Shown here piece after piece: positions 1 through 17,456 of a stretch of 17,589 nucleotides of DNA (the first letter of the stretch is position 1; each line of letters begins with the position of its first letter). The position numbers and the translations under genes were made by a program. Source of the DNA: Deinococcales bacterium (GTDB taxonomy: Bacteria; Deinococcota; Deinococci; Deinococcales; JAAFIG01); the NCBI GenBank assembly GCA_043778225.1, contig JAYWGM010000077.1, forward strand, positions 1-17,589, written 5' to 3'. Under the pieces are notes generated by a model. It was not told the origin of the DNA and did no database searches. It saw nothing but the letters and a program-made list of their open reading frames with translations.

Positions 1-127
1 CTAAGCGACGGAAACGTTTGAAGGCGTTATTACATGATGATTACTTGCTATCGTTACTTGGTTTATCAGGCAAGGCATAGTTGGTGCGTTTGCCCTATCA
101 TGGCAGCCTTTACAGGTTTGGTGCTGA

Positions 128-1270
<1,143 letters not shown>

Positions 1271-1287
1271 TTAGTCTCAGTTCTCAC

Positions 1288-1394
1288 AGGGCAGGCACAA
1301 GACCTGCCCCTACACAAAACAATTTTATATAGGGGCGACCCTCTCTTGACCATCTACACGCACCTCACGGTCATGGTCGCTCGTGGTCGCCCTT
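1288..1394. repeat. Inverted pair of GTAG-type REP-like hairpins; the second carries a 38-bp loop insert (1343-1380)
   Basis: AGGGCAGG-CACAAGA-CCTGCCCCTAC (1288-1313), then ATAGGGGCGACC...GGTCGCCC (1329-1392); the spacer is itself an imperfect inverted repeat. Confidence 0.8.
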
Positions 1395-1412
1395 TTACTA
1401 CGAGGAGTACCC

Positions 1413-2576
1413 GTGAAAACCCTGAATTCCCTAGATATTGCTGGAAAACGTATTTTGGTGCGCGTGGATTACAACGTGCCAGTCGAAGACGGCGTGGTTT
1501 CTGATGATACCCGAATCACCGCCAGTCTCGAGACAATCAACTGGCTACTCGAGCGTGGGGCAAGCGTAATTTTAATGTCGCATTTTGGCAGACCCAAAGG
1601 TGTAGACGAAAAATACCGACTTGCACCAGTGCATCCAGTTCTCGAGAAAGTGCTGGGTAAGTCTGTACAGTACATTCGGTCAAATCCTGCCAGTCCCGAA
1701 ACGGCGACGGCGCTTGAAAATCTAAAAGCTGGACAAGTGGCTTTACTCGAGAATGTGCGTTTTGAAAGCGGCGAGGAAAAAAACGATCCAGTCCTCAATG
1801 CAGCCTTAGCAAAACTCGGCGATGCCTTTGTCTTGGATGCCTTTGGCAGCGCTCATCGGGCGCACTCGAGTGTTTCGGGCGTGGCGGGTTTATTGCCACA
1901 CGCGGCGGGGCTGTTGCTCGAGAAAGAAATGGTGCAACTGACCAAACTACTCGAGCATCCAGTCTCACCATATGTGGTGATTATTGGTGGCGCAAAAGTT
2001 TCGGATAAGTTAAAAGTGATCGAGAATCTATTGCCCAAAGTAGACAAAATGCTGATTGGTGGCGGCATGGCGTACACTTTTGTCAAAGCCACAGGCGGTA
2101 GCATTGGCAAGTCTATTCATGAAGACGATTTTTTAGAGACCGCCAAGCGTTTACTCGAGCAATTTGGTTCTAAAATTGTCTTGCCGACCGATACCTTGGC
2201 TGGCGATAAATTTGCTGCCGATGCAGCCACACAGGTTTTTGCCACCAATGCGATTCCCGACAATTGGGAAGGCATGGACATTGGACCTGAAAGCCAAAAG
2301 GCATTTACAGCTGCCCTCGAGAATGCCAAAACGGTGTTCTGGAATGGACCAATGGGTGTTTTTGAATTTCCAGCTTTTGCCAGTGGCACAAATGCAGTGG
2401 CGGAGGCTTTGGCTAAAATCCAAGATGCCTTTACCGTGGTTGGCGGCGGCGATAGCGTTGCGGCAATCAATGAAACTGGCTATGCCGACAAAATAGACCA
2501 TATTTCGACAGGTGGCGGTGCAAGCCTCGAGTTGCTCGAGGGTAAAACCTTGCCAGGCGTGGCAGCGCTTAGGTAG
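1413..2576 (+). CDS. pgk: Phosphoglycerate kinase
   Basis: [49 protein letters not shown] and [17 protein letters not shown] start after RBS GAGGAG at 1402-1407. Confidence 0.98.
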
Positions 2577-2594
2577 CTCGAGAAAATAACCAAT

Positions 2595-2635
2595 AAACCG
2601 AGGCGAAGTTTGGGTATCGTCTCGGTTTTTGTTTT
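2595..2635 (+). terminator. Probable intrinsic terminator of gap-pgk
   Basis: Stem AAACCGAGGCGA / TCGTCTCGGTTT with one G-U pair and a 10-nt loop, followed by TTGTTTT. Confidence 0.7.
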
Positions 2636-2663
2636 ACAATATAAAAGTCTCGAGGAGGTTTGT

Positions 2664-3719
2664 ATGCGAAAATTTTGGATTGGTGCTTTGAGTTTAGCCG
2701 CATTGCTGGCTGGCAGTATGGGCATGAATCGTGGCGAAGCTCAGAAAAAAACCTTGAATTTCTTTAATTGGTCAGAATACGTTGACCCAAAAGTCGTCAA
2801 GGATTTTGAGAAAAAAATGGGGGTCAAAGTCAACCAGAGTTTCTATGAATCCAACGAAGATATGTTGGCAAAACTCAAACAGGGCGGCACAAAACAATAC
2901 GATTTGGTCGTGCCAAGTGGTTATATCATTGGTACGATGACCAAACAGAATTTATTGCGTCCACTCGATAAAAAACTCCTTCCCAACCTCAAGAATCTCG
3001 GTCCAAAATTTCGCACCCCAGACTTTGATACCAAAGGCGAATTTACAGTTGCCTATTTTTGGGGGACAACCGGCGTGGGCTACCGCAAAGATAAGTTGCC
3101 GAAAAACTTTGACCCAAGTTGGGCATTGTTTTTTGACCCAAAAAAAGTCCCCGGTCCGTTTCAATTCCTTGATGATGCCCGCCCGACGATTGGCGCTGCC
3201 TTAAAGTACCTTGGAAAATCGTACAACAGCACCAGTGCCACCGAATTAAAAGCTGCCCTCGAGCTTTTAAGAACTGCCAAAGCCAAATCGGTCGGGTTTG
3301 GCGGTAGCCCAGATGCCAAGCAAAAACTCTTGAGCGGTCAGGTCGTGATGGCAATCATGTACAACTCCGAAGCGGTGCGTGCCGCCGAAGAAGACCCGAA
3401 CATTGGCTATTTTATTCCCAAAGAAGGCGCAGAAATTTGGCTCGATAGCCTAGCGATTCCCAAAGATGCTCCTAATTGGCAACTGGCGCATCAATTTATT
3501 AACCATCTACTCGAGGCTCAAGTGGCTGCCCAGAATTCCAATATGACTGGCAACAGCAGCCCCGTGGATGCGGCTCGACCCTATATTCAGCGTAAAACAT
3601 TGGGTAATCCCGCTATTTATCCCAACAGTGCCACCCTTGCCACGCTCGAGTACAGCAAAGACATGGGTATCAATCAGCGCTTATACGATGCCGTTTGGAC
3701 ACAACTCAAAGCCCGTTAA
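2664..3719 (+). CDS. Spermidine/putrescine ABC transporter substrate-binding protein (PotD/PotF family)
   Basis: Signal peptide; LNFFNWSEYVDP, YESNEDM, YDLVVPS, YFWGTTG and PKEGAEIWLD; RBS GAGGAGG at 2652-2658. Confidence 0.9.
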   Translation: MRKFWIGALSLAALLAGSMGMNRGEAQKKTLNFFNWSEYVDPKVVKDFEKKMGVKVNQSFYESNEDMLAKLKQGGTKQYDLVVPSGYIIGTMTKQNLLRPLDKKLLPNLKNLGPKFRTPDFDTKGEFTVAYFWGTTGVGYRKDKLPKNFDPSWALFFDPKKVPGPFQFLDDARPTIGAALKYLGKSYNSTSATELKAALELLRTAKAKSVGFGGSPDAKQKLLSGQVVMAIMYNSEAVRAAEEDPNIGYFIPKEGAEIWLDSLAIPKDAPNWQLAHQFINHLLEAQVAAQNSNMTGNSSPVDAARPYIQRKTLGNPAIYPNSATLATLEYSKDMGINQRLYDAVWTQLKAR

Positions 3720-4426
3720 AGTAAAGCTCCCAATCCCTTGACTGCACCACTCGAGATTCGCACATCAGCATACTTCGAGAGCGGCGTAACTTCTGGATTG
3801 ACCTCGATTAAAAACGCCCCATTTTGTTTGGCAATTCGCCCAAGGCTGGCGGCTGGTTCGACCACACTGCTTGTGCCAATAACCAGAGCAACGTCACAGG
3901 TTGCAAAAGCGTTTGTGGCTGCCTCGAGAATCTGCGCGGGCAGCATTTCGCCAAACCACACCACGTTAGGGCGCATTCTCGAGCCGCACTTTTGGCAAGT
4001 TGGCGGCGGAGTAAAACTTGGCTCAAGTGCTTGGATATTTTTACAGGATTCACACCGAGCCGTGACGATATTGCCGTGCAACTCGAGAACGTTTTGGCTA
4101 CCGCTTCGTTGGTGCAAACGGTCTACGTTTTGTGTGACCAAGGTCAGATTTTGCTGTTGCTCGAGTTTTGCAAGTGCCAGATGGGCTGCGTTTGGTTGGG
4201 CGCTCGAGCAAGTTATAAAACGTTCGGCATACCAATCCCAGACCAGTTTTGCATCCCTCGAGTAGGCTTGGGGCGAAGCTAATTCGTGTGCCGAAAACCG
4301 CGCCCAGTAGCCAGTCTGAGCATCCCGAAAAGTAGGAATACCACTCTCGGCACTGATGCCCGCCCCAGTTAGCACGGCAATAGCTTGAGCAGATTGAATT
4401 TTGGTTTTGGCGGTCTCGAGGTTCAT
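3716..4426 (-). CDS. cobB: NAD-dependent protein deacylase (class III sirtuin)
   Basis: GAGISAESGIPTFR, TQNVDRLH, ELHG, two CxxC Zn pairs, RPNVVWFGE and GTS; YxxR (YAER) as in desuccinylases; leaderless -10 TAGAAT at 4433-4438. Confidence 0.95.
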   Translation of the reverse strand: MNLETAKTKIQSAQAIAVLTGAGISAESGIPTFRDAQTGYWARFSAHELASPQAYSRDAKLVWDWYAERFITCSSAQPNAAHLALAKLEQQQNLTLVTQNVDRLHQRSGSQNVLELHGNIVTARCESCKNIQALEPSFTPPPTCQKCGSRMRPNVVWFGEMLPAQILEAATNAFATCDVALVIGTSSVVEPAASLGRIAKQNGAFLIEVNPEVTPLSKYADVRISSGAVKGLGALL

Positions 4427-4481
4427 GGTTAGATTCTACCAACTTGGAGTAAGGGTGTTAATATGTCAGCATAACAACAAG

Positions 4482-4510
4482 TTGACACTGCCACTCACAT
4501 ACGCTACACT
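4482..4510 (+). promoter_or_regulatory. Sigma70-type promoter for the structured RNA and DUF3800 gene
   Basis: TTGACA (4482-4487), exactly 17 bp, TACACT (4505-4510); predicted start site about 4516-4517, at the 5' end of the RNA stem. Confidence 0.8.
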
Positions 4511-4515
4511 AGCCT

Positions 4516-4579
4516 TGCGGTTGAGAGTTCTGTCCTTCATGGAACGCGGAAACTTAGTTTTCCCTCAACTGCATTTTTT
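4516..4579 (+). ncRNA. Putative structured RNA (three-way junction plus U-tract) upstream of the DUF3800 gene
   Basis: P1 TGCGGTTGAG (4516-4525)/CTCAACTGCA (4564-4573); P2 GTTCTGT (4527-4533)/ATGGAAC (4539-4545); P3 GGAAA (4548-4552)/TTTCC (4559-4563); T6 at 4574-4579. Confidence 0.7.
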
Positions 4580-4583
4580 GTTT

Positions 4584-5279
4584 ATGCACTTACTCTATAT
4601 TGATGAATCCGGACACGCAGATGATGCAACCCAGAGGTTTTTTGTCATGATAGGTGTCTCGTTTTTTGAAAAACAGACTTTCTGGGTTGCCAATGAACTT
4701 GATAACATTGCAGCAAGATTCGATCCAGCCGATCCTTTTTCAATTGAACTCCATGGCTCACCAATGAAACAAGGAAAAGGTATTTGGAAAAGCATTTCTG
4801 GAAATGCCCGTGCAGAGGCTTTCAAAGATGCACTTACAATTCTTACAAAAAGTCACAAAAGCAATCGTTTATTTGGTATCGCCATCGAAAAAGCTGCAAT
4901 TTATCCTCAAGACCCCGTTCAATATGCCTTTGAGCAACTTCTAAGTCGGTTTGACCATTATTTAATGAGGCTTCATAAACAAGGCGACTCACAGCGAGGC
5001 ATTGTCATTCTCGATAAAACATCACATGAACGAACTTTGCAAAATTTGGCTACTGCATTTCGTACCGTTGGACATTCCTGGGGGGTATTGCGAAATCTTT
5101 CTGAAGTCCCACTATTTTTAGATTCAAAAGCATCTCGTTTAATTCAATTAGCAGATTTAGTTGCTTATGCTACGTTTCGCTATTTTGAAAAAAATGATTC
5201 CGAGCTTTTTAATCTAATTGAGCCTCGTTTTGACCGAGACGCAGGTACGGTTCATGGTTTACATATTAGGACACTATAA
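4584..5279 (+). CDS. DUF3800-family protein (predicted RNase H-like acidic catalytic residues)
   Basis: N-terminal LLYIDESG, ELHG, IVILDK and C-terminal FLDSKASRLIQLADLVAY are typical of DUF3800; visibly AT-rich and without CTCGAG. Confidence 0.85.
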   Translation: MHLLYIDESGHADDATQRFFVMIGVSFFEKQTFWVANELDNIAARFDPADPFSIELHGSPMKQGKGIWKSISGNARAEAFKDALTILTKSHKSNRLFGIAIEKAAIYPQDPVQYAFEQLLSRFDHYLMRLHKQGDSQRGIVILDKTSHERTLQNLATAFRTVGHSWGVLRNLSEVPLFLDSKASRLIQLADLVAYATFRYFEKNDSELFNLIEPRFDRDAGTVHGLHIRTL

Positions 5280-5282
5280 ATT

Positions 5283-6398
5283 ATGAAAAAAGTTGTTGTT
5301 GCCTTTGGAACTCGCCCTGAAGCCACAAAAATGGCACCGGTTATTTTTGGTTTACGCCAACAAGCAGAAATTGAAACAATTATCTTGTCTACTGGTCAAC
5401 ACAAAGAACAATTATTGGATGGCTTACGGATTTTTGGCATCACTCCAGACATTGACTTGGCAGTCATGACCGAGCGCCAAACCTTGGCTACTTTAATGGG
5501 TAAAATTGTGCCATTGGCTGCCGAGCAGTTGCGCCAACTCAAAGCAGACTATGTGCTGGTTCACGGCGATACCCTAACCAGTTTTGCGGTTTGCTTGGCG
5601 GCTTTTTTTGAACGCATTCCAGTCGGTCATGTTGAGGCGGGTCTGCGTAGCCACAACATGGCAGAACCATTTCCCGAAGAAGCCAACCGCCGTTTGACCG
5701 ATGTCCTGACCGATTTGGATTTAGCCCCAACCCGAGGCGCAGCCGAAAATATCCAGCGCGAAGGGAAAATCAGCCCAAATATCGTGGTCACAGGTCAGAC
5801 GGAGGTAGACGCAGTGCTGTACGCCAGTTCTCGAGGGAGGCTGCCCAATATCCCAACCGATAAACGAATTGTTGCCATGACGATGCACCGCCGTGAGAAT
5901 TTACCATTTATGGCAGACTTAGCCAGCGCCATGGCTCGAGTTGCCAATGCCCACCCAGAATGCCATTTTGTCTATCCTGTGCATTTGAATCCTGCCGTGC
6001 GTGAAGCAGTTTACCCAAGTTTAGAGCCACTGAAAAATTTTAGTCTGCTCGAGCCTCTGGATTTTGGCAGCATGGCAGCCCTGATGAAAGCCTCGAGCCT
6101 GATTGTGACCGATAGCGGCGGTTTGCAAGAAGGCGGCGCGACCCTTGGCGTGCCAGTCGTGGTGCTTAGGAACGTGACCGAGCGCCCCGAAGGTTTAGCC
6201 GTCAATGCCTTAAAACTGGCTGGCACAGACCCCGAGAATGTTTTTAAGACCATTCACAGCCTGCTCTCGAGCGATGAAGAACTGGCTAAGATGCAAAACC
6301 GCCCGAATCCATACGGCGATGGTCACGCGGGGATTCGTTGCGCTCAAGCCGTGGCATGGCGCTTGGGTTTGGCACAGCGCCCTCAAAACTGGCAGTAG
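5283..6398 (+). CDS. wecB: UDP-N-acetylglucosamine 2-epimerase (non-hydrolysing)
   Basis: [50 protein letters not shown] and NPYGDG. Confidence 0.96.
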
Positions 6399-6402
6399 CG
6401 AT

Positions 6403-7005
6403 TTAATTCCTGACAAACAGTCCACATTGCAGTGTGGTTTGGACAATGCCTACCAGATGCTCGAGGTAGCCTTGGGTCAAAGGTTCGGGTACGATTGGGG
6501 CTTCAATCAGCAGGCTGGCAAGTCCGTGAATCGTACTCCAAACAATCAGCGCCAAGGCTTGTGGGTCGCCGTTGACGACTAAACCAGAGGCTTGCATTTG
6601 GCGTATCGTTTGGATCAGAATTTCAAAGCTTTGATTGGCGGTTTCGGTCAATTCGTCGGGGCTGCCTTTTGGTTCGCATAGGTTTTTGCGAAACATAAAT
6701 CTAAATTCGGTTTGATGGCTTAGTGCAAATTTGATGTACTCGAGTCCGATACCGTACAGCACGGCTTCTGGCTCGAGATTTTGCTGTTTTTGCATCAGCC
6801 TTTTGAGTTCGTTAAAAGCATCTATGGCAAGCGCCCGCAATAAGGCACGTTTATCGGCGAAGTGATGATACGGCGCGGCATGGCTGACTCCTGCACGGCG
6901 GGCAACTTCGCGCAAGGTGATGCTGTCGATGGTGTTTTCGGCAGCCAGTTCTCGAGCCGCGTTCAGGAGTGCAAGGCGCAGATTGCCGTGGTGATAGCTG
7001 GTCAT
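6403..7005 (-). CDS. TetR/AcrR family transcriptional regulator
   Basis: YHHGNLR start, HTH LREVARRAGVSHAAPYHHF and C-terminal WSTIHG; divergent from the oxidoreductase gene. Confidence 0.93.
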   Translation of the reverse strand: MTSYHHGNLRLALLNAARELAAENTIDSITLREVARRAGVSHAAPYHHFADKRALLRALAIDAFNELKRLMQKQQNLEPEAVLYGIGLEYIKFALSHQTEFRFMFRKNLCEPKGSPDELTETANQSFEILIQTIRQMQASGLVVNGDPQALALIVWSTIHGLASLLIEAPIVPEPLTQGYLEHLVGIVQTTLQCGLFVRN

Positions 7006-7031
7006 GGTCTAAAGGGTAGCGCTTTTTTAAG

Positions 7032-7079
7032 AACTTGACAATAGAAAGATTATGGTTTATCTTTACGTTGTAAAGATAA
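7032..7079 (+). promoter_or_regulatory. Promoter TTGACA-17-TATCTT with two overlapping TetR-type operators
   Basis: TTGACA 7035-7040 and TATCTT 7058-7063; perfect inverted repeat TTATCTTTAC-GTT-GTAAAGATAA at 7057-7079; degenerate copy AACTTGAC-AAT-AGAAAGAT at 7032-7050. Confidence 0.8.
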
Positions 7080-7087
7080 GGAGTCAT

Positions 7088-7696
7088 ATGAACATACTGT
7101 TAATCCTCGGACATCCAAACCAAGCCTCGTTTTGTAACGCCTTACTCGAGCAGTACGCACTTGGCGCAGCGCAAGCCAATGTAAAAATCCTGCGCCTTGG
7201 CAACCTCGCCTTCAATCCAATCAGTCAAGGCTACGCACAACCAATGCCACTCGAGCCAGATTTAGTGCTGGCACAGCAGCAAATCACTTGGGCAGACCAT
7301 TTGGTTTTTGTCTATCCAACTTGGTGGGGCAGCACGCCAGCGTTATTGCAAGGCTTTATCGACCGCACATTTTTGCCCGAATTTGCTTTTAAGTACAAAA
7401 AAGATTCGATTTGGTGGGACAGGCTACTGACTGGCAAAACCGCCAGAATCATCACCACCATGGATGGCACAAGTTGGTGGCATTACCTGATGCACTTTGC
7501 GCCTGGAATCAACAGCTTAAAACGCGCCGTGTTACATTTTTGTGGCGTGGCAAAAGTGCAAACCACAATCATTGAAAGTGTCCGAAGCTCGAGCCTCGAA
7601 AAACGCCAGAAGTGGCTCGAGGAAATGAACAAACTTGGGTCTCGGGATACGAACTCAGTACACCGCCGAACCAACCAAGCCAGCATCGAGACCTAA
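7088..7696 (+). CDS. NAD(P)H-dependent oxidoreductase, flavodoxin-like (MdaB/KefF/NQO family)
   Basis: ILGHP..SF, ADHLVFVYPTWWGSTPALLQGFIDR, LLTGKTA and LHFCG; RBS AAGGAG at 7078-7083. Confidence 0.9.
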   Translation: MNILLILGHPNQASFCNALLEQYALGAAQANVKILRLGNLAFNPISQGYAQPMPLEPDLVLAQQQITWADHLVFVYPTWWGSTPALLQGFIDRTFLPEFAFKYKKDSIWWDRLLTGKTARIITTMDGTSWWHYLMHFAPGINSLKRAVLHFCGVAKVQTTIIESVRSSSLEKRQKWLEEMNKLGSRDTNSVHRRTNQASIET

Positions 7697-7730
7697 CTGA
7701 TTTCTTGCAGTAAGCAGAAAACACTGTACC

Positions 7731-7988
7731 TCACACTACTACCAAAACTTTTAGTTTCAAGACTTCATTAACTTGCTCTTGCTTACGATTCAATTCAAAC
7801 TGAACAACCCAAGTCAGTAACCAAAGTTGAGCCAGTCTAGCTATGGCAATCCAATCAGGATTCTCCTCATTAGCAAAAGGAAAATTAGTCCATAACACCA
7901 GTAAGTACGCAATAAACGCAATCAATAAAAACCTAAGAACGTTTTCAATGATGGTTGGGAAGTCCTGAGTGCCAATCGGTAAGTGCAT
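7731..7988 (-). pseudogene. 85-aa chimeric remnant ORF: AAA-ATPase-like N-terminal peptide fused to a probable transposase C-terminus
   Basis: Leaderless -10 TACAAT at 7995-8000; starts MHLPIGTQDFPTIIEN; the rest (VLRFLLIAFIAYLL..W..PDW..LL.WVV) resembles DDE transposase tails from memory; AT-rich and without CTCGAG. Confidence 0.45.
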
Positions 7989-8046
7989 ACTCGTATTGTA
8001 CGACAACCCAAGGTCAGCCTCATTCAAACCAAGTAGACTTATAGCC

Positions 8047-8748
8047 ATGAAAGCCTTTTTATTGACTGTTTTTTTACTGGTCTCGAGCGCCATTGCCCAG
8101 CGCTTAGAAGAGGCTCAAAAACGCTATGCCAACGGTGATTTTCTCGAGGCAAGTTTGCTGGCACGGCAACTCAGAACTTCTGATGGTTTTGCATTAGCGG
8201 CTCGAGCCTTGTACGAACACGCCATGGAATTGCCACTTTCTAAGCGTGAACCTTTGATGGTGCAGTGCGAAGCCTTTGCTCGAGAATCTTTAGAGCTTAA
8301 TCCAAAAAATGCCGATGCCTATTTTGAACTCGGTGCAAGTGCTGGACAATTTGCTTTGCTGCGTGGCACAGTCTGGGCATTTTTGAATGGTGTGCCGCAG
8401 CAGATTCGCGGCTATTTTGAACGCAGTATCGAACTCGAGCCACGCCATGTTTTTGCGATGATTGCCTTGGCGCGTTGGCACGCCGAAGTGGTCATGGGTG
8501 GTGGCGGTTTTTTATTCAACGCCAGCCCCGAAGAAGCCTTAAAACTACTCAACCGTGCGGTGCGAACTGAACCTAAAAACATCAATGTCCGAGTTAATTT
8601 TGCCCAGACGCTACTGGTCTTAGATAGAGTTGCCAATCGTACTGCCGCCAAAGCCCAACTTGAGCTTGCGATTACCTTAGAACCCCGAGATGCCCTAGAG
8701 CGCAAAGCCCTTGAAGCCGCTAAACGTGGTCTCGAGCAGCTAAAGTAG
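8047..8748 (+). CDS. Secreted tetratricopeptide-repeat-like protein
   Basis: Signal peptide MKAFLLTVFLLVSSAIA; repeated TPR-like ends (SLELNPKNADAYF, SIELEPRH, AVRTEPKN, AITLEPRD); -10 TAGACT at 8034-8039. Confidence 0.8.
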   Translation: MKAFLLTVFLLVSSAIAQRLEEAQKRYANGDFLEASLLARQLRTSDGFALAARALYEHAMELPLSKREPLMVQCEAFARESLELNPKNADAYFELGASAGQFALLRGTVWAFLNGVPQQIRGYFERSIELEPRHVFAMIALARWHAEVVMGGGGFLFNASPEEALKLLNRAVRTEPKNINVRVNFAQTLLVLDRVANRTAAKAQLELAITLEPRDALERKALEAAKRGLEQLK

Positions 8749-8826
8749 AAAAGGTAAAAAGGACAAAAGGTAAAAAATACGCATGGCTTTTACTTTTGCC
8801 CTTTTACCCTTTCGCCTTTTGACCCT
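8749..8826. repeat. Imperfect inverted element made of 8-bp tandem units (AAAAGGTA-like / TTTTACCC-like)
   Basis: AAAAGGTA AAAAGGAC AAAAGGTA ... TTTTGCCC TTTTACCC TTTCGCCT TTTGACCC; related copy at 14847-14925. Confidence 0.7.
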
Positions 8827-8875
8827 AATCTTTTTTTGCACGTCTTTTGTAAGCCTAAGGCGGTAGACTATTTTT

Positions 8876-9637
8876 ATGATTGAAGTTGTTAATTTTGAAA
8901 AACGATTTGGACGGGTCGCGGCGGTGCAGAATGTCAGCTTTTCGGTTTCGCCAGGGCAGGTGTTTGGTTTGCTGGGTCCCAATGGCGCAGGCAAAACCAC
9001 AACCATTCGGGCGATGGTCGGGCTGACCCGTCCCTCGAGTGGCACAGTGCGGGTGGCAGGTTTTGATGTTTGGAAAGAACCCGTCAAAGCCAAAGCGGCT
9101 TTTGGCTATATCCCAGACCGTCCGTATTTGTACGGCAAACTAACGGCTCGGGAGTTACTGCGTTTTATTGCTGGCTTGCATAAACTTAACAATGCCGAAC
9201 CCGAGATAGACCGATGGCTCGAGTTTTTTTCTTTAGAAAATTTTGCCAACGAGTTAATCGAGACTTTTTCGCATGGCATGAAACAAAAATTGACGATTAT
9301 CTGCGCCATGCTGCCTGAGCCGCCAGTCCTCATTGTGGATGAACCAATGGTCGGTTTAGACCCCAAAGCCGCCAAACAAGCTCGAGAAATCCTGTCTGGT
9401 TATGCCGAAAAAGGCAACACGGTTTTACTCACGACCCACAGTTTGCCAGTTGCCGAAGCCGTGGCGCACCGCATCGCCGTCCTAGACCGAGGCGTGGTCT
9501 TAGCCGAAGGCACACTACAAGAATTGCAAAACCGCACCAACGAAGAACGCAGTGGGGTCGAGGGTAATACTTTAGAGCGAATTTTCTTTAAGCTGGTCGA
9601 AGAAGAAGCCCTAGAACGCGAAAAGGTCGCCGCATGA
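8876..9637 (+). CDS. ABC transporter ATP-binding protein (exporter type)
   Basis: Walker A GPNGAGKTT, signature FSHGMKQK, Walker B LIVDEP and H-loop TTH; -10 TAGACT at 8864-8869. Confidence 0.95.
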   Translation: MIEVVNFEKRFGRVAAVQNVSFSVSPGQVFGLLGPNGAGKTTTIRAMVGLTRPSSGTVRVAGFDVWKEPVKAKAAFGYIPDRPYLYGKLTARELLRFIAGLHKLNNAEPEIDRWLEFFSLENFANELIETFSHGMKQKLTIICAMLPEPPVLIVDEPMVGLDPKAAKQAREILSGYAEKGNTVLLTTHSLPVAEAVAHRIAVLDRGVVLAEGTLQELQNRTNEERSGVEGNTLERIFFKLVEEEALEREKVAA

Positions 9638-11394
9638 GCTTGGTCTCGAGCCAGCCACAAAAGCAGACTCGGTACTCGAGTTCTTTACTGGGCATCAAGT
9701 GGCTGAGTCTTAAAAATGCAGTGCTGCGAGGCAATCGCTGGAGTTACTTGGCGGTTTTGATGTTTGTTGGCTTGGTGGCTTGGGGCGAATACGCTGGCAC
9801 AATTCGGGCGCTCGAGTACGTCTGTGATGCTGGGCGTGGATTTTTGGACTTCAATCGCAAATGCAGCATCATTGGGACTTCGATTGCTTCGCGGGTTCTC
9901 GAGGGTGGCTTGTTGGTACTGGGGGCTGGAGTCACTTTTAGCGCCATCACCACCGCCATCACGACTTTATACACCTCCGACGACCTCAATTTTTTGCTTT
10001 CGCAGCCTTTGCCAAGCGCTCGAGTTTTTGCGGTGAAACTTTTTGATACTTACCTTTCGGCGGCTGGCGTACCAAGTTTATTGCTGGTTGCACCACTGGT
10101 GGCATTGGGTGTTTATTTTCAAGCGGCTTGGTGGTACTTTCCATTGGCAATTTTAGCGGCATTGATTACTTTTATTTTGCCAGTTGGCTTAGGCGCAACC
10201 ATTGCCATCGGTCTCATGCGCCTCAGTCCGGCAGGCAGGGTGCGCGAGGTGGCGACAGGTATTGGCGTGGCACTCTCGGCGCTGTTGGTTTACCTGATTC
10301 GTGATGCCCGCCCCGAAGCGCTGCTGCGCCAACTTAACGACCGCGCTGAGGGTGATGCTGCAATCAACCGCTTGGTCGAGCAATTTGGTGGGGCGAGCAA
10401 TCCATTTTTACCCTCGAGTTGGGCAAGTAACTTTATTTGGAACAGCGCCAGAGGTGATTTTAACAATGGCATTCTTTTTTTAACCGCACTGGCAATTGTG
10501 ATGATGCTGGTAGCGCATGGCTTAGCCACCAAAGCCTATTTGGAAGGTTGGGTGCGTGGACTCGAGAGTTCACGGGTGCGTTTAGACCCAACCAAGCGCC
10601 GCGCCAGCCCGTTTGAAAAGCTGCTAGGGCGTTTTGGTCCAGCCGGGCATTTAATCGTTAAGGATGTACGCTTGTTGTTTCGGGATGCCACTCAATGGTC
10701 GCAATTGCTAATTCTGGTGGCACTGGGCGGAGTTTATGTGGTCTCAGTACGGGCTGTACCGGGCTTGGATGCTGGCAACCTCGAGCAAGCGCGGCTTTAT
10801 AAAAATGCACTTGGTTTTTTAACGATTGCTTTTCAGGGTTTTGTGATTGCTGGAGTCGGTGTCCGTATGGCATTTCCAAGCATTTCACTCGAGGGTCAAG
10901 GCTATTGGTTATTGCGAACCTCTCCCCTTTCGGCTCGCCAGATTGTGGTCGCTAAATTCTGGGGAGCGCTACCCGCAACGCTGCTTTTGGCGTTGTGTCT
11001 GGGTTGGTTTGCAGCGCGGAGTTTAGAACTGACTCCGATTGTCACCGCCATGAGTGTTTTGGTGGCGGTCTCGAGTGCCTTTGTGATGACGGGCTTAGGC
11101 GTTGGTATCGGAGCGGCTGTGCCACGTTTTAAGTTTGATAACCCCGCCGAGGTGGCGGTCAGCGCTGGCGGTTTAATTTATATGGGAACTGCCGTTTTGT
11201 TTGGTGGGGTGCTGACCCTGATTGCGGCTCGACCGACCTATGTCAGTTTATCGGATGTGAGGTACGGCACAGGACTCGAGTATTTCTCCAGCAGCGAAGG
11301 TATTTTGGTGCTTGGCTTAATGCTGCTCTTGAGTGTTTTGGGAACAATCCTGCCAATGTGGTTTGGCTGGACACGATTAGACAGGCATGAGTAG
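9634..11394 (+). CDS. Putative ABC exporter permease, multi-pass membrane protein
   Basis: ATGA overlap with the ATPase; many hydrophobic segments; duplicated motifs DLNFLLSQPL....VFAVK and SLEG..YWLLRTSPL....IVVAK. Confidence 0.85.
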   Translation: MSLVSSQPQKQTRYSSSLLGIKWLSLKNAVLRGNRWSYLAVLMFVGLVAWGEYAGTIRALEYVCDAGRGFLDFNRKCSIIGTSIASRVLEGGLLVLGAGVTFSAITTAITTLYTSDDLNFLLSQPLPSARVFAVKLFDTYLSAAGVPSLLLVAPLVALGVYFQAAWWYFPLAILAALITFILPVGLGATIAIGLMRLSPAGRVREVATGIGVALSALLVYLIRDARPEALLRQLNDRAEGDAAINRLVEQFGGASNPFLPSSWASNFIWNSARGDFNNGILFLTALAIVMMLVAHGLATKAYLEGWVRGLESSRVRLDPTKRRASPFEKLLGRFGPAGHLIVKDVRLLFRDATQWSQLLILVALGGVYVVSVRAVPGLDAGNLEQARLYKNALGFLTIAFQGFVIAGVGVRMAFPSISLEGQGYWLLRTSPLSARQIVVAKFWGALPATLLLALCLGWFAARSLELTPIVTAMSVLVAVSSAFVMTGLGVGIGAAVPRFKFDNPAEVAVSAGGLIYMGTAVLFGGVLTLIAARPTYVSLSDVRYGTGLEYFSSSEGILVLGLMLLLSVLGTILPMWFGWTRLDRHE

Positions 11395-11409
11395 TCTCCA
11401 GCTTAACTA

Positions 11410-11748
11410 CTAAAGCCGAATACGCCACAGCCACCAGAGCAGCCCAAATTGCAATGGCAAGCGGGCATATAAAATCCAAGCTGGCACACCAAATTTGGCT
11501 GGCTCGAGTGCCATATAGATATTGGCTGGATAAACCGCCACCAACAGCGCCATCAAGCCGTAAACTGCCCAATTTCGAGTCTGGGCAAACAATAAACCAA
11601 GTCCGCCTAAAATTTCAAAAAAACCAGAAATATAGGTCAATTCAAGCGCCCAAGATGCAATTTGTGGTGGCACAATCTTGACAAAAAAGTTGGGGCTAAC
11701 AAAGTGCATAACGCCAGCGAAAATAAACAGCCCCGCCAGAACAATCAC
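11410..11748 (-). CDS. DoxX-like small membrane protein
   Basis: AGVMHF..P.FF..IVP, SGFFEILGGLGLL, AVYPANIYMA and RLPLQ; GTG start overlaps the trpA stop (GTGA). Confidence 0.8.
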   Translation of the reverse strand: MIVLAGLFIFAGVMHFVSPNFFVKIVPPQIASWALELTYISGFFEILGGLGLLFAQTRNWAVYGLMALLVAVYPANIYMALEPAKFGVPAWILYARLPLQFGLLWWLWRIRL

Positions 11749-12518
11749 TTGGCACAACCCGATAGAATCTCTTGGCACAGTTCACGCAAACCTGTCCCGC
11801 GCTCGGCTGCCACCACCAGCGCACTGCCAACCACGACACCATCGGCAACTCGAGCCACCGCTTGGGCAGTCTCGAAATTTGAAACCCCAAAACCAACCGC
11901 CACAGGTTTATCGGTGCTGGCTTTAATGTTGGCGACCATCTGCGGCACTTCTTCGGGGATGCCGACTCGAGCGCCCGTTACGCCAGTCACCGACACGGCA
12001 TAGACAAAACCGGTACTCGAGGCTGTGACCAAATCAATTCGGTCTTGGGTACTGGTTGGCGCAAGTAAAAAAGTCAGTTTTAGACCAGCCGCCGCCGCAA
12101 TTGGAATCAGCGTCTCGGCTTCGTCGGGTGGCAAGTCTGGCAAAATTAAACCGTCTATGCCAGCCGCGACCGCTCCAGCCACAAACTCGGCTTCGCCAGT
12201 CGCTAAAATCGGGTTGTAATAGGTCATGATAAACAACGCTTTGTCCGATTGTTGGCGCAGTTCTCGAGCCGCCGCAAATGTACCAAGCACCGTCATGCCA
12301 TTCTCGAGGGCGCGTTCACCAGCCTTTTGAATCGTCGGACCATCGCCTAACGGGTCAGAATAAGGCAGACCAATTTCCAAAGCATCGGCGTACTCGAGAA
12401 TGGTTGTGGCTGCCTCGGTAAACCCTTGGAGGGTCGGAAACCCCGCCGGTAAATAGGCAATAAAGGCAGCTCGAGATTCGGATTTGGCAGTTGAAAAAGC
12501 AGTTTCGATTCGGTTCAT
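11745..12518 (-). CDS. trpA: Tryptophan synthase alpha chain
   Basis: EIGLPYSDPLGDGPTIQ, MTYYNPI, PDLP, LLAPTS, SVTGVTG, VGFGV and DGVVVGSA; RBS GAGGG at 12526-12530. Confidence 0.97.
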   Translation of the reverse strand: MNRIETAFSTAKSESRAAFIAYLPAGFPTLQGFTEAATTILEYADALEIGLPYSDPLGDGPTIQKAGERALENGMTVLGTFAAARELRQQSDKALFIMTYYNPILATGEAEFVAGAVAAGIDGLILPDLPPDEAETLIPIAAAAGLKLTFLLAPTSTQDRIDLVTASSTGFVYAVSVTGVTGARVGIPEEVPQMVANIKASTDKPVAVGFGVSNFETAQAVARVADGVVVGSALVVAAERGTGLRELCQEILSGCAK

Positions 12519-12530
12519 ATGTTTTCCCTC

Positions 12531-12651
12531 GTAAGGACAGACCCCTGTGTCTGTCCTGACTTGCTTTTGCAATTTGCTTTTTGCATAGTTAAGCGAGGCG
12601 TACTTCTTGACCACAAACGCGCACCTGACGGGCTGGGTCGCCTCGCCCTAC
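12531..12651. repeat. REP-like doublet between trpB and trpA: an empty REP (12531-12558) and a REP with the 38-bp insert (12593-12651; insert 12604-12641)
   Basis: GTAAGGACAGAC-CCCTGT-GTCTGTCCTG; GCGAGGCGTAC[38 bp]CTCGCCCTAC. Confidence 0.8.
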
Positions 12652-12679
12652 GGTTTTTTGGTGCATTCGCCCCCACGGT

Positions 12680-13900
12680 CTAGGCTTTCGCGGCATTTTC
12701 CATGTCATTCATGACGCGCATGACTTCTTGGACATCTTTGTCGCCGCGCCCAGAAAGATTGACCACAATGATTTTGTCTTTGCCCAGTTCTGGCGCTAAG
12801 GTTTTTAGGTGAGCGATAGCGTGGGCGGTCTCGAGGGCTGGAATAATTCCTTCGCATTCACTTAATAACTTAAACCCCTCGAGCGCTTCTCGGTCGGTAA
12901 TCGGTACATATTCAGCTACGCCATTGGCGGCATAGTAGCTGTGTTCCGGTCCAATTCCGGGATAATCGAGTCCTGCGCTAATGCTATGGGCTGGCACAAT
13001 CTGACCGTTTTGGTCGTACAGCAAATACATCAAAGAACCATGCAGCACCCCAACTTTGCCACCAGCCACACTGGCAGCATGAAGCCCCGATTCGATGCCA
13101 TATCCAGCCGCCTCCACCCCGATTAACCTTGGGCGGTTCTCGAGGTAAGCATAGGGCGCAAAAATACCAATCGCGTTGCTGCCACCACCAACACACGCCA
13201 CAATCGCATCTGGGGAAATCCGTCCCTCGAGTTCAAGCAATTGGGTTTTGGTCTCTTCGCCAATCACGCTTTGGAAATCGCGCACCATCGCGGGGTATGG
13301 GTGCGGACCAACCACGCTACCAAGCACATAAAAGGTACTGCGGACATTGGTCACCCAGTCTCGAATCGCTTCGTTGGTGGCATCTTTTAAGGTTCGTGTG
13401 CCACTCGAGACGGGGCGAACTTCTGCGCCAAGTAATTTCATCCGAAAAACATTGAGACTCTGGCGGCGCACGTCTTCTTCGCCTTGGTAGACAATGCACT
13501 CGAGACCAAACAAAGCGCACGCCGTAGCGGTGGCAACGCCGTGCTGTCCAGCCCCAGTCTCGGCAATAATTCGTTTTTTGCCCATCCGTTTTGCCAGCAT
13601 CACCTGCCCGATGGTGTTGTTGATTTTATGCGCTCCAGTGTGATTTAAGTCCTCGCGCTTGAGGTAAATTTTTGCTCCACCAAGGCGTTCGGTCAAGTTT
13701 TTAGCAAAATACAATAAACTCGGGCGACCGACAAATTCACGCAGAATTCGTTCAAATTCAGCCATAAAAACAGGGTCGGCTTTGGCTTCTTGGTACGCCG
13801 TATTTAATCCCTCGAGGGCTGGAATGAGCGTTTCTGGCACATAGCGCCCACCAAAACGACCAAAACGACCGCGAGCATCGGGCAATGGAAAATTTTGCAT
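12680..13900 (-). CDS. trpB: Tryptophan synthase beta chain
   Basis: [26 protein letters not shown] (PLP lysine), [23 protein letters not shown] and NLSGRGDKD; leaderless -10 TATACT at 13907-13912. Confidence 0.97.
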
Positions 13901-13962
13901 GGGAGTAGTATAGGGGCTGTGTTTGGGATTTCTCGAGTCAGTGGCATAGACAGGATGTAAAT

Positions 13963-13990
13963 GTAGGGATTTGCCATGGCAAATCCCTAC
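13963..13990. repeat. Perfect 28-bp palindrome with GTAG/CTAC ends (REP-like)
   Basis: GTAGGGATTTGCCA-TGGCAAATCCCTAC between the divergent trpB and hbd genes. Confidence 0.8.
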
Positions 13991-14008
13991 GTGATGTAAA
14001 CTGTGATT

Positions 14009-14848
14009 ATGAAATTTGGTGTGATTGGCGCGGGTCAAATGGGTGCAGGAATTGCACAAGTGGCGGCAGTGGCTGGCTTTGATGTGCTGCTGCGCGATGT
14101 CGAACAGCGTTTCTTGGATAAGGGCTTGACTGGAATTCAAAAGTCGCTGGCTAAATTTGTTGAAAAAGGCAAACTCGAGCCAGTGGCAATGGATGAAGCC
14201 TTAGCACGAATTAAAACCACAACTTCGCTGGCAGATTTTGTCGAAAGGGATTTGGTAGTCGAGGCAATTCTCGAGAATGAAGTGATTAAGCTCGAGCTAT
14301 TTACCGAACTTGGGCGAATTGTCAAACCTTCTGGAGTGCTGGCAAGCAACACCTCGAGTATTCCGATTACGCTCTTAGCAACCGCTTCTGGTCGCCCTGA
14401 GCAGTTTATCGGGATGCACTTTATGAATCCTGTGCCGCTCATGACCCTTGTTGAAGTGATTCGTGGGCATTTGACCTCGGATGCCACCACCACAATGATT
14501 CTCGAGACTGCCAGCCAAATGGGTAAAACAGCCGTTCAATGCAACGATTACCCCGGTTTTATCAGCAACCGAATTCTGATGCCGATGCTGAACGAAGCCA
14601 TTCAATGCGTGATGGAAGGCGTAGCCACCCCAGAAGCCATAGACCAAATCATGAAACTTGGCATGAACCACCCAATGGGTCCGATTACTTTAGCCGATTT
14701 TATTGGCTTAGATACCTGCCTTGCGATTATGGAAGTCCTGCATAAGGGTTTAGGAGATGATAAATACCGTCCCTCGCCGCTTTTGCGAAAAATGGTTCAA
14801 GCTGGCTTACTCGGGCGTAAATCCGGACGCGGGTTTTACAAATACTAA
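14009..14848 (+). CDS. hbd: 3-hydroxybutyryl-CoA dehydrogenase
   Basis: [40 protein letters not shown] and HPMGP; leaderless -10 TAAACT at 13997-14002. Confidence 0.93.
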
Positions 14849-14925
14849 GGTGAAAAGGTCAAAGGGTGAAAAGGTTAAAAGTAAAGACCGCGTTCAACCT
14901 TTTCTACTTTTTACCTTTTTACCCT
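14847..14925. repeat. Second octamer-based inverted element, between convergent genes (possible bidirectional terminator)
   Basis: AAGG TGAAAAGG TCAAAGGG TGAAAAGG TTAAAAGT ... TTTTTACC TTTTTACC; resembles the reverse complement of 8749-8826. Confidence 0.65.
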
Positions 14926-15767
14926 GCTTTCCTCTCCCACACACCGCGTTTGACGGCTTGTTCCTCGAGTTGACGCATGACTTCGCCACCGTCGCGCCAA
15001 TGCAGCGAATGCAGGTCAGCCACACTGCGCTTGAGGATTTTACCAGCCGCTTCTAAGAGCCGTTGCTCGAGCGCTTCGCCGCGCATATTAAAGAGTTTTG
15101 TGCCGATACTGAGCAGGCGTTCGACTTTGGCTTGGCTAAAGAGGTCTTCGTCTGGAACTGCTCCGTGGTCGTATTCCTCGAGTCCGTCGTCTATGTCGGG
15201 TAGGGCAGTGGCTCGAGTTGGCACAGGTTCGTCTTCGGGTTCGGGGCGTGGTTTTCGGGCATTGGTTGGCGCGGTCAGTTGCGAAGCTGGGCGCATCGGG
15301 ATACTCGAGAGTTTTGGGCGCACGACTTCTTCGGGTTCGGGTTCTCGAGCAGTAGCATCATGGATAACTTGTACTGGTCGTGATGTTTCGATGCGCGGTT
15401 GTGGTTTATCGACCACCCGAGCCTCGAGTAAACCTGTGGATTCATCAAATTCTGGGGCAAATTGTGTGCCAAAACCAAGCATCCCAAGGGCGCGTCCAAT
15501 GCTGCCTGTTTCGGCTTTCTCGAGGTAATCTGGGAAATGGGTTTTGTCCTCGCGTTTGGTGGCGCTGGCGGTTTTAATCGCGCTGCCAGTATCGTCAAAA
15601 ACCGTGACTGTGGCTTGGACAATCGCGTAAGTGTCCTCGAGTTTCAGGATTTGGCTTTGAATCGTATAACGCGGCGCTTCTTCATTAAGCCAGATTAAAC
15701 GAGCAGCCACAGGCAAATAATCTTTGCCTTTAAGGTTCATCAGGTGTTGGCGTGGGTCAAAAGACAT
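14919..15767 (-). CDS. Putative Rad52/Sak-like single-strand annealing protein with a Pro/Glu-rich linker and a C-terminal helical domain
   Basis: GKDYLPVAARL.W and EKAETGSIGRALGMLGFG resemble phage Rad52-superfamily cores; not similar to Deinococcus DdrA as I recall it; -10 TATAAT at 15773-15778. Confidence 0.55.
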   Translation of the reverse strand: MSFDPRQHLMNLKGKDYLPVAARLIWLNEEAPRYTIQSQILKLEDTYAIVQATVTVFDDTGSAIKTASATKREDKTHFPDYLEKAETGSIGRALGMLGFGTQFAPEFDESTGLLEARVVDKPQPRIETSRPVQVIHDATAREPEPEEVVRPKLSSIPMRPASQLTAPTNARKPRPEPEDEPVPTRATALPDIDDGLEEYDHGAVPDEDLFSQAKVERLLSIGTKLFNMRGEALEQRLLEAAGKILKRSVADLHSLHWRDGGEVMRQLEEQAVKRGVWERKAG

Positions 15768-15778
15768 AACTTATTATA

Positions 15779-15795
15779 TTCTGTTTGAAGCAGAA
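15779..15795. promoter_or_regulatory. RDRM (DdrO-box)-like 17-bp palindrome
   Basis: TTCTGTTTGAAGCAGAA directly abuts the -10 TATAAT of the 14919-15767 gene and fills the 17-bp spacer. Confidence 0.65.
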
Positions 15796-15798
15796 TTT

Positions 15799-17233: not shown

Positions 17234-17456
17234 TAGAGCCTCCGAAAGGTCATGATTTTAGGTTTTTTCATTAAAACATACAAACGGAAAACAGGGCGAC
17301 CCCCGTCGCTAGATGCTCCGTCGCCCCTACAAAACATATTTTTATGCCCTTTTTGTAGAGATAGACCCCTCTTGACCATAAACACGCACCTGTCGGGCAT
17401 GGTCGCCTGTGTCTATCCTGTGACAACGATGTATTTTCATTCTTTCGGAGGCTCTA
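17234..17456. mobile_element. MITE-like non-coding element with perfect 15-bp terminal inverted repeats
   Basis: TAGAGCCTCCGAAAG (17234-17248) and CTTTCGGAGGCTCTA (17442-17456); TA at both ends; no transposase inside. Confidence 0.6.
17293..17420. repeat. Inverted REP-like doublet; the second REP carries the 38-bp insert (17369-17406)
   Basis: AGGGCGAC...GTCGCCCCTAC (17293-17330); CTACAAAA...TTTTGTAG spacer; GTAGAGATAGACCC[38 bp]CTGTGTCTATCCTG (17355-17420). Confidence 0.8.

What the first reader, a model, noticed from the sequence alone, without database searches (positions are those of the whole stretch)
1343..1380. Conserved 38-bp cassette inserted into the loops of three different REP hairpins (copies at 1343-1380, 12604-12641, 17369-17406)
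Seen: CTCTTGACCATCTACACGCACCTCACGGTCATGGTCGC, TTCTTGACCACAAACGCGCACCTGACGGGCTGGGTCGC and CTCTTGACCATAAACACGCACCTGTCGGGCATGGTCGC align without gaps (29-33 of 38 identical). Removing each restores a simple hairpin: GGGCGACC-CTTCGT-GGTCGCCC, GCGAGG-CGTA-CCTCGC and GATAGAC-CCCTGT-GTCTATC. The third, emptied (GTAGAGATAGACCCCTGTGTCTATCCTG), matches a real empty REP at 12531-12558 (GTAAGGACAGACCCCTGTGTCTGTCCTG) in length and loop. The host stems differ in sequence, and in copy 2 the host REP faces the other way relative to the cassette, so the insertions look independent. The cassette has its own inverted repeat (GACCAT/ATGGTC) and an inner CC-N4-GG mini-hairpin. Known: GTAG REPs are associated with RAYT HUH transposases, and some IS110-family elements target REPs. 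Inference: a very small non-autonomous element, or an excision scar, that targets hairpin loops by structure. Three copies in 17.6 kb suggest a high copy number. I do not recognise it as a described element.
Basis: partly seen in the sequence, partly recalled or inferred. Interest (0 to 1): 0.75.

Follow-up and report, generated by a model that had tools for sequence, protein, structure and literature searches.

The report
Tiny hairpin-invading mobile DNA in Deinococcales
A 35-41-base stem-loop DNA has repeatedly inserted itself into other hairpins (REP repeats, tRNA anticodon loops, its own loop) in a group of uncultured Deinococcales, making it one of the smallest known jumping elements, with its enzyme still unidentified.

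Summary
The three copies are real (29, 33 and 32 of 38 identical). One scan of species-representative genomes returned 103 loci, 98 from ten Deinococcales/Deinococcota MAGs. In 768 kb I found 159 copies, against 0 in shuffled DNA. They fall into several families whose stems differ in sequence but keep pairing.

The element is mobile and is not a long REP variant. It occupies 53 host-site classes in both orientations. Empty counterparts exist for 117 of 154 copies. It nests up to four deep, forms tandems, and sits at C32|U33 in 3 of 23 tRNA genes of one array. Junctions are mostly C|T, then C|A.

Best model: a non-autonomous single-stranded element moved by an HUH (Y1, TnpA_REP-like) enzyme. 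No such gene was found in the fetched DNA. The main rival is an IS110 recombinase: the cassette resembles IS110 right ends, and an IS110 is inserted at its central CT at three loci. The closest known kind is the Nostoc SDR repeats (recalled, paper not available).

The parts
1342..1380 (+). Cassette copy 1, family A, 39 nt (2-nt variable 5' prefix plus 37-nt core 1344-1380), in the gap-pgk spacer
   Evidence: exact empty only in this register; 45.5 bits
1329..1392 (+). Host REP of copy 1 (degenerate GTAG foot), interrupted at a C|T after the first loop base
   Evidence: the orthologous spacer in L059 holds a different REP filled in the opposite orientation
1360..1372 (+). Inner bulged hairpin of copy 1. 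Its C|T at 1364|1365 is the site used for nested insertion and by the IS110 in relatives; on the minus strand the loop is G-N-N-A with a bulged T
1288..1313 (-). Empty partner GTAG REP next to copy 1
12604..12641 (+). Cassette copy 2, 38 nt, imperfect outer stem; between trpB and trpA, antisense to both
   Evidence: 53.3 bits
12593..12651 (-). Host GTAG REP of copy 2; the cassette's plus strand lies on the iREP strand
   Evidence: a similar empty REP is listed once
12531..12558 (+). Empty REP of the subtype that hosts copy 3
17369..17406 (+). Cassette copy 3, family A, 38 nt (left edge uncertain by 1 nt)
   Evidence: 56.1 bits; the same host subtype is filled with a 39-nt form in L020, L034 and L045
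17355..17420 (+). Host GTAG REP of copy 3
17293..17330 (-). Partner GTAG REP with an unusually long loop unrelated to the cassette

Best explanation
The cassette is a non-autonomous mobile element of 35-41 nt (mostly 38-39) that moves as single-stranded DNA. SHOWN: it inserts as a unit at many unrelated sites, nearly always 3' of a C (C|T > C|A > C|C/C|G on the plus strand), with no target duplication beyond 0-2 ambiguous bases. Sites are mostly in or beside hairpins: REP and iREP loops, other palindromic repeats, tRNA anticodon loops, its own central C|T and its own 3' end. Its fold (outer stem, asymmetric loop, bulged inner hairpin) is conserved while the stem sequence changes. INFERRED: an HUH Y1 tyrosine transposase of the TnpA_REP/IS200 superfamily, encoded elsewhere in these genomes, binds the bulged hairpin. 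It nicks at the two C|N ends, joins them into a single-stranded circle, and transfers the circle into an exposed C|N of another single-stranded hairpin (peel-and-paste). Some filled REPs were probably then amplified together with their host composite repeats. Mobility itself is about 0.9 likely; the HUH identity of the enzyme is about 0.5.
For: Mobility: 159 copies, 0 in shuffled sequence; 53 host-site clusters among 154 copies; an empty counterpart for 117 of 154. One site is filled by families B' and C in different loci and is empty in L005. An orthologous REP is filled in opposite orientations in L002 and L096. 25 of 154 copies are nested and 8 lie directly 3' of another copy. Removing cassettes raises the ARAGORN count in L027 from 17 to 20; all 3 insertions are after C32 of the anticodon loop (p about 2e-4 given CT sites). 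Junctions in the 117 resolved copies: C|T 61, C|A 20, C|C 6, C|G 4, T|C 14, T|T 12; 28 of 32 resolved host clusters are C|N. TnpA_REP cuts C|T, and C|A for the Marinomonas enzyme, in iREPs and linkers and performs strand transfer (passages of PMC3479197, PMC8266576, PMC3333891). Single-strand fold: with a pairing-blind detector, 29 of 36 outer-stem positions pair versus 19.7 when arms are shuffled, p=3e-4; 17 cells change on both sides versus 5.4. The inner loop reads G..A on the minus strand in 154 of 156 copies (57 of 59 not constrained by the seed pattern), but only 42 of 141 tetraloops are GNRA, which suits DNA better than RNA. No bias to the transcribed strand: 28 sense versus 22 antisense, p=0.48. 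In palindromic-loop REPs the plus strand is on the iREP strand (21 versus 6, of which 3 are double-foot REPs counted both ways), so GTAG polarity matters.
Against: No RAYT, IS200 TnpA or TnpB was detected in the 768 kb fetched (motif scan; Pfam on 146 of 626 candidate ORFs; phmmer and tblastn over all six frames). This covers only a fraction of each genome. The cassette has no GTAG guide. 35 of 54 non-REP sites with full flanks have no GTAG REP within 400 nt, and same-strand versus opposite-strand REP neighbours do not differ (14 versus 8, p=0.29), so cis-cleavage by the GTAG-REP RAYT cannot explain all sites. 26 of 117 resolved junctions lack the 5' C. The 5' prefix varies (T 58, TG 24, TC 14, G 13, others 8), which a precise HUH should not generate anew. 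Target sites fold more stably than random intergenic CT sites (p=2e-7) but are not more often enclosed by a stem (45 of 53 versus 76.5%, p=0.22). No GC-skew strand bias (35 and 28 of 64 positive). DNA folding energies slightly favour the plus strand, not the G..A-loop strand. Many copies are not independent events.
Confidence: 0.5

Rival explanations
1. The cassette is a minimal derivative of an IS621-clade IS110 right end and is moved in trans by an IS110 recombinase. The enzyme would excise it as a single-stranded circle by donor-loop half-match recognition and insert it at CT-core hairpins with little or no target guide.
For: A weight matrix from 14 plasmid IS110 right ends scores the held-out MAG IS end at 24.4 bits. 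It scores the first 16 nt of the common family A/A' variants at 4-15.5 bits (p 1.6e-3 to 3e-6 per position) and the cassette's last 5 nt plus CT at p=1.6e-4. In C|T targets the product has CT at both ends, as in IS110. An IS110 is joined at the cassette's central CT in L046, L067 and L069, 3 of 3 IS110 ends seen. IS621 excises single-stranded circles and recombines at half-matches (10.64898/2026.08.31.748434, parts 1-3 of 6). ISPpu10 reads a target stem-loop (10.64898/2026.03.19.712850, abstract and Discussion).
Against: IS621 cuts after the T of CT, with T nearly invariant and C loose (PMC11208158 passages). Here C is the stricter base, and in C|A, C|C and C|G sites the crossover is between C and the next base. 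Targets share no guide-length sequence. The donor-like 7-mer is free to change with the stem, so families C and D score negative on the left-16 matrix. The register was chosen after inspection, and TTGAC is also a generic -35 box. The IS left end and bridge RNA were not recovered. The IS110 may simply target the cassette, as IS621 targets REPs.
Confidence: 0.25
2. It moves through RNA: a small structured RNA is ligated or reverse-spliced into hairpin loops and copied by a reverse transcriptase, the variable 5' prefix being non-templated addition. In the extreme form it is a micro-intron that can be spliced out of tRNA.
For: Precise 3' end but variable 5' prefix. All three tRNA insertions are sense and at one anticodon-loop position. 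Covariation fits RNA as well as DNA; RNA folding energies favour the minus strand in 53 of 80 variants.
Against: No sense bias. Loops are mostly non-GNRA. No Rfam match in the window apart from the unrelated DUF3800-VI RNA. No RT motif in the fetched loci. Copies are almost all intergenic, and one 38-nt copy in L036 breaks a reading frame, which argues against splicing. C32|U33 is also simply a C|T in a hairpin loop.
Confidence: 0.1
3. No dedicated enzyme: it is a long REP variant or module spread by gene conversion, template switching and RAYT-driven amplification of host REPs.
For: Large host clusters of up to 23 near-identical filled sites and shared orthologous insertions. Tandems and hairpin-deletion variants in L048, L068 and L094 fit replication slippage.
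Against: Insertions into tRNA genes, an IS630 and a coding region share no homology with REPs. Different families occupy the same base in one host. An orthologous REP is filled in opposite orientations in a way simple inversion cannot produce.
Confidence: 0.07

Closest known systems
Small dispersed repeats (SDR1-8) of Nostoc (Elhai et al. 2008, PMC2527708). Paper not held; seen only as reference entries and one sentence on SDR5 in PMC4390886; the rest is recalled
   Same: Recalled: very small (21-27 nt) mobile repeats, families sharing a fold by compensatory change, nested copies, insertion into tandem heptamers, no known enzyme
   Different: Longer (35-41 nt), different phylum, a C|N junction rule, anticodon-loop and REP-loop targets, likeness to IS110 ends, and an IS110 inserted in it. 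Sequence homology to SDRs could not be tested
REP/REPIN/BIME with RAYT (TnpA_REP) (PMC3333891, PMC3479197, PMC8266576, PMC3116915 passages; PMC6006769 parts 2-4 of 10)
   Same: REP-sized bulged hairpin, C|T and C|A junctions, iREP-strand preference, mosaic and tandem arrays, intergenic
   Different: No GTAG foot, single unit rather than doublet, inserts into hairpins including non-REP ones, no linked RAYT gene found
IS110 (IS621 clade) and its non-autonomous passenger MITEPpu9/ssr9 (PMC11208160, PMC11208158, PMC12288879 passages)
   Same: CT at both ends in C|T targets, right-end-like sequence, REP targets, circular intermediate plausible
   Different: Smaller than the two terminal boxes of ISPpu9 alone (43 and 16 bp), encodes no bridge RNA or sRNA, no sequence-specific target, opposite core tolerance
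IS200/IS605 ends and their non-autonomous derivatives (IS608 details from passages)
   Same: Imperfect hairpin with a bulged T on one strand, no real target duplication
   Different: One compact hairpin instead of two subterminal ones; no conserved tetra- or pentanucleotide target

Membership tests
GTAG REP / REPIN | GT(A/G)G tetranucleotide 5' of the hairpin foot | tested here: not met
   Absent from the cassette on both strands (alignment; variant list)
GTAG REP / REPIN | Ends and targets at C|T (C|A) dinucleotides | tested here: met
   81 of 117 resolved junctions are C|T or C|A, 91 of 117 are C|N; 26 are not
GTAG REP / REPIN | Cognate RAYT gene flanked by the repeat | tested here: inconclusive
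   None in 768 kb from ten fragmented MAGs plus the window; the rest of the genomes was not available
GTAG REP / REPIN | Replicates as an inverted doublet | tested here: not met
   Copies are single, nested or direct tandem
IS110 non-autonomous derivative | Right end with -35 box, short inverted repeat, donor 7-mer and CT core | tested here: inconclusive
   Family A/B resemble it, families C and D do not in their first 16 nt; register chosen after inspection
IS110 non-autonomous derivative | Crossover after the T of CT, T nearly invariant | tested here: not met
   30 of 117 resolved junctions are C|A, C|C or C|G with the element's T retained on its own 5' end; 12 T|T copies do fit
IS110 non-autonomous derivative | Guide-specified target sequence of about 11 nt | tested here: not met
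   53 unrelated host-site classes
IS110 non-autonomous derivative | Bridge RNA donor loop matches the element's ends | not testable with these tools
   Only about 120 nt of the IS right end are on the fetched contigs
IS200/IS605 derivative | Fixed 4-5 nt target 5' of the left end | tested here: not met
   Only the last base is conserved across host sites
IS200/IS605 derivative | Imperfect hairpin with an unpaired base | tested here: met
   One bulged base in the inner stem in all 80 distinct variants parsed (A in 79)
Classical MITE | Terminal inverted repeats and target duplication | tested here: not met
   The inverted repeat is subterminal and varies in sequence; the 2-nt duplication test gave 10 of 26 matches, p=0.055
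Nostoc SDR | Sequence or structure homology to SDR1-8 | not testable with these tools
Known structured RNA (Rfam 15) | Match to a covariance model | tested here: not met
   Only DUF3800-VI at 4518-4571 up to E=1

The most novel reading that the evidence does not exclude
The cassette is a 38-nt relic of an IS110 right end that became its own kind of transposon. A folded single-stranded DNA, not a guide RNA, is read by the recombinase (or by a recruited HUH enzyme) and pasted into any exposed C in a hairpin. This gives a three-tier parasitism in which REPs and tRNA genes host the cassette and the cassette hosts an IS110. It would be close to the lower size limit of a mobile element and a natural structure-directed, guide-free insertion system.
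Probability: 0.2. Interest if true: 0.9.

Novelty: new variant of a known kind. Interest (0 to 1): 0.72.

Why it matters
How sub-50-nt repeats spread in bacteria is an open question; the REP papers read here state that the dissemination mechanism is unclear. This family makes it testable. It is a 38-nt substrate with mapped junctions, natural compensatory variants that define the fold, and two concrete candidate enzymes (a Y1 HUH, or the IS110 found inside it). It also shows insertion chosen by DNA structure plus one base, reaching tRNA anticodon loops, and a layered parasitism (REP, cassette, IS110). Either enzyme would be a new way to insert short DNA into hairpins.

Tried and rejected
Searches for outside relatives: BLASTN of the 38-mer against plasmids and phages gave only chance-level hits (best E 0.1 and 6). 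Nested clusters gave none in plasmids and only E=0.4 in phages. The 5 non-Deinococcota loci lack the rest of the cassette and the model does not score those sites; they were dropped as chance.

Long autonomous copy: after removing complete copies, 44 left-half and 51 right-half matches remained versus 30 and 14 in shuffles. On inspection the real ones were nested or decayed copies, contig ends, hairpin-deletion variants, one 77-nt copy (L010) and the IS110 junctions; none brackets an ORF.

Mobiliser search: nothing for RAYT, IS200 TnpA, TnpB or RT; an IS110 profile found only the C-terminal fragments. A homologue search with E. coli RayT listed only close, mainly enterobacterial relatives and did not help. 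The IS left end was not found.

Ideas rejected: IS1111-type circle junction (no fixed inverted-repeat sequence); group II intron junction (similarity limited to 5 nt); CRISPR spacer acquisition (no repeat-length duplication); 2-nt target duplication as the source of the prefix (p=0.055, not established); lagging-strand bias (no signal in fragmented contigs).

For the IS110 matrix, 14 of 18 fetched elements were used: L107, L113 and L119 had no recognisable end and L111 duplicated L108; L118 and L120 may be misassigned. The copy detector rewards stem pairing, so covariation was retested with a pairing-blind pattern.

Nine literature searches found no description of this element; subscription papers, ISfinder and supplements were not seen.

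Full report
Observation. The three 38-mers are at 1343-1380, 12604-12641 and 17369-17406, with 29, 33 and 32 of 38 identities. A degenerate 21-mer finds only these three in the window, against 0.03 expected. All are intergenic: gap-pgk, trpB-trpA and upstream of an amidase gene. Rfam has no match to them. Plasmid and phage collections gave only chance hits. Copy 1 is one base longer than stated (1342-1380), because only that register rebuilds an empty REP that exists exactly in related DNA.

Distribution. 98 come from ten Deinococcales/Deinococcota MAGs; 5 from other phyla lack the rest of the cassette and were dropped. The window is about 78-80% identical to the nearest fetched genes, so it is another member of this clade. 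A three-block detector with recursive removal found 159 copies (80 distinct cores of 34-39 nt, plus a 1-2 nt prefix) in 768 kb, and none in shuffled sequence. Away from the seed sites the density is roughly 20-40 per Mb in the best-sampled MAGs, a crude figure. Metagenome and viral collections were not checked.

Anatomy. Conserved: a 5' TCTTG, an inner hairpin with one bulged base and a 3-4 nt loop, and a 3' CGC. Free in sequence but paired: the outer stem, which defines at least eight families. The detector rewards pairing, so I retested blind to pairing: 29 of 36 stem positions pair versus 19.7 on shuffling (p=3e-4). On a 30-sequence alignment 17 cells change on both sides versus 5.4 (related sequences inflate this). 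On the minus strand the inner loop is G..A in 154 of 156 copies but GNRA in only 42 of 141 tetraloops. Sheared G.A loops are known to stabilise DNA hairpins (established knowledge), so single-stranded DNA is the likelier folded form. Folding energies do not settle which strand folds.

Mobility. For 117 of 154 copies with enough flank, one register matches an uninterrupted site elsewhere in the data. The 154 copies fall into 53 host-site clusters: GTAG REPs in both orientations, other palindromic repeats, heptamer tandem repeats, an IS630, a coding region and the cassette itself. 25 copies are nested at the central C|T, up to four levels deep in L006, and 8 lie directly 3' of another copy. One site is filled by family B' in two loci, by family C in two, and is empty in L005. 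An orthologous REP is filled in opposite orientations in L002 and L096, and the gap-pgk spacer is filled oppositely here and in L059; other orthologous pairs share an older insertion. In a 23-gene tRNA array (L027), three genes (Arg, Gln, Leu) are interrupted, all after C32 of the anticodon loop; removal lets ARAGORN call them (17 to 20 genes). The long-REP-variant reading is therefore refuted. Large clusters of near-identical filled composites show that host amplification also contributes, so copies overcount events.

Junction rule. Among the 117 resolved copies the junctions are C|T 61, C|A 20, C|C 6, C|G 4, T|C 14 and T|T 12; 28 of 32 resolved clusters are C|N. The 3' end is precise. The 5' prefix varies (T 58, TG 24, TC 14, G 13, others 8) and is not explained by a 2-nt duplication (p=0.055). 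Sites fold more stably than random intergenic CT sites (p=2e-7) but are not significantly more often enclosed by a stem (45 of 53 versus 76.5%). There is no bias to the transcribed strand (28 versus 22, with a crude gene caller) and no GC-skew signal. In REPs whose loop is a perfect palindrome, the plus strand lies on the iREP strand whichever REP of a composite is filled. However, 82 of 128 located copies are not in a detectable GTAG REP, and 35 of 54 such sites with full flanks have none within 400 nt.

Mechanism. TnpA_REP cuts single-stranded DNA at C|T in iREPs and linkers, up to more than 400 nt from a REP, needs a bulged stem, and transfers strands; the Marinomonas enzyme also cuts C|A (passages of PMC3333891, PMC3479197, PMC8266576). 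Several TnpA_Y1 subclasses have no GTAG REPs or only atypical hairpins (PMC6006769, parts 2-4 of 10). The junction chemistry, bulged hairpin, size and iREP bias fit an HUH peel-and-paste route best (0.5). The enzyme is inferred: no Y1, TnpB or RT gene was found in the fetched DNA, and the cassette has no GTAG guide.

The IS110 link. Three contigs of one MAG end in the C-terminus of an IS110 transposase (top tblastn hits mostly annotated IS110). In each, the right end is joined to the cassette's right half at the central CT (L046, L067, L069). These ends were not the pattern matches that brought the loci in, so 3 of 3 suggests that this IS110 targets the cassette. The cassette also resembles IS110 right ends: a matrix from 14 of 18 fetched plasmid elements scores the first 16 nt of the common family A/A' variants at p 1.6e-3 to 3e-6 and its 3' end plus CT at 1.6e-4, while families C and D score poorly there (register chosen after inspection). 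A preprint reports that IS621 excises single-stranded circles and accepts half-matches (10.64898/2026.08.31.748434, parts 1-3 of 6), so IS110 mobilisation is plausible (0.25). Against it, IS621 cuts after an almost invariant T (PMC11208158 passages), the reverse of the tolerance seen here, and the targets share no guide-length sequence. An IS110 origin followed by HUH mobilisation is compatible with both sets of data. RNA/RT routes (0.1) and passive spread (0.07) fit worse.

Known relatives and novelty. The closest kind is the Nostoc SDR repeats. That paper was not held; I saw only reference entries and one sentence on SDR5, and the rest is recalled. The cassette fails membership tests for GTAG REP/REPIN, IS200/IS605 derivatives, classical MITEs and strict IS110 derivatives, while working like REP-type single-strand elements. 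MITEPpu9 is the nearest IS110 passenger but is larger and carries an sRNA gene (PMC12288879 passages). Nine searches found no description of this element; PMC3733652 and 10.64898/2026.10.21.760802 contain no mention of Deinococcus in the main text. Other papers seen: PMC11208160, PMC13626964, PMC3116915 and PMC4390886 as passages; 10.64898/2026.08.14.744561 abstract and Results part 1 of 3; 10.64898/2026.03.19.712850 abstract and Discussion. Supplements and ISfinder were not seen and could hold a prior record.

Verdict. A real and apparently undescribed family of very small mobile hairpins: a new variant of a known kind, interest 0.72. The mobilising enzyme is the open question and is directly testable.

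Noticed in passing
window 4518-4571 (+) and 4584-5279 (+): DUF3800-VI RNA motif (Rfam RF02915, 44.5 bits) directly upstream of a DUF3800 gene.
   Followed up: no
window 1-17589: CTCGAG occurs 102 times, against about 4 expected from base composition (count); a HIP1-like over-represented palindrome, also common in the related MAG loci.
   Followed up: no
window 8749-8830 and 14849-14923: Inverted arrays of 7-8-nt tandem repeats downstream of genes; similar heptamer arrays host cassettes in L011, L020, L041 and L098.
   Followed up: partly
window 17293-17330 (-): GTAG REP with an unusually long loop unrelated to the cassette; the only one of its kind among 116 REPs detected. Could be another small insert.
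   Followed up: partly
window 13963-13990: Double-foot REP (GTAG at both ends) between trpB and the 3-hydroxyacyl-CoA dehydrogenase gene.
   Followed up: no
L027 746-4497 (-): Array of 23 partly degenerate tRNA genes beside ORFs that look like an IS1-type transposase (by eye, untested); three genes carry the cassette after C32.
   Followed up: partly
L046 1-140, L069 1-150, L067 6700-6843: Right end of an IS621-clade IS110 joined at the cassette's central CT in three contigs of one MAG; left end and bridge RNA not recovered.
   Followed up: yes
L010 829-905 (-): Family B cassette whose loop carries about 43 nt of foreign sequence found nowhere else in the fetched DNA; possible cargo or a second element.
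   Followed up: partly
L012 about 9990-10045: Cassette sits between the two ORFs of an IS630 transposase next to a run of seven A on the coding strand, a candidate frameshift site.
   Followed up: no
L036 950-1100 (-) and 2390-2490 (-): Cassette clusters interrupt the 3' part of an ORF without a Pfam match; one cluster includes a lone right half starting at the central C|T.
   Followed up: partly
L022 1-100 and L070 1-100: Two contigs of one MAG end in the same unannotated sequence next to a palindromic repeat, possibly the end of another mobile element.
   Followed up: partly
window 14919-15767 (-): 282-aa ORF with no Pfam match, with a conserved-looking N-terminal part and a Pro/Glu-rich linker.
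   Followed up: no
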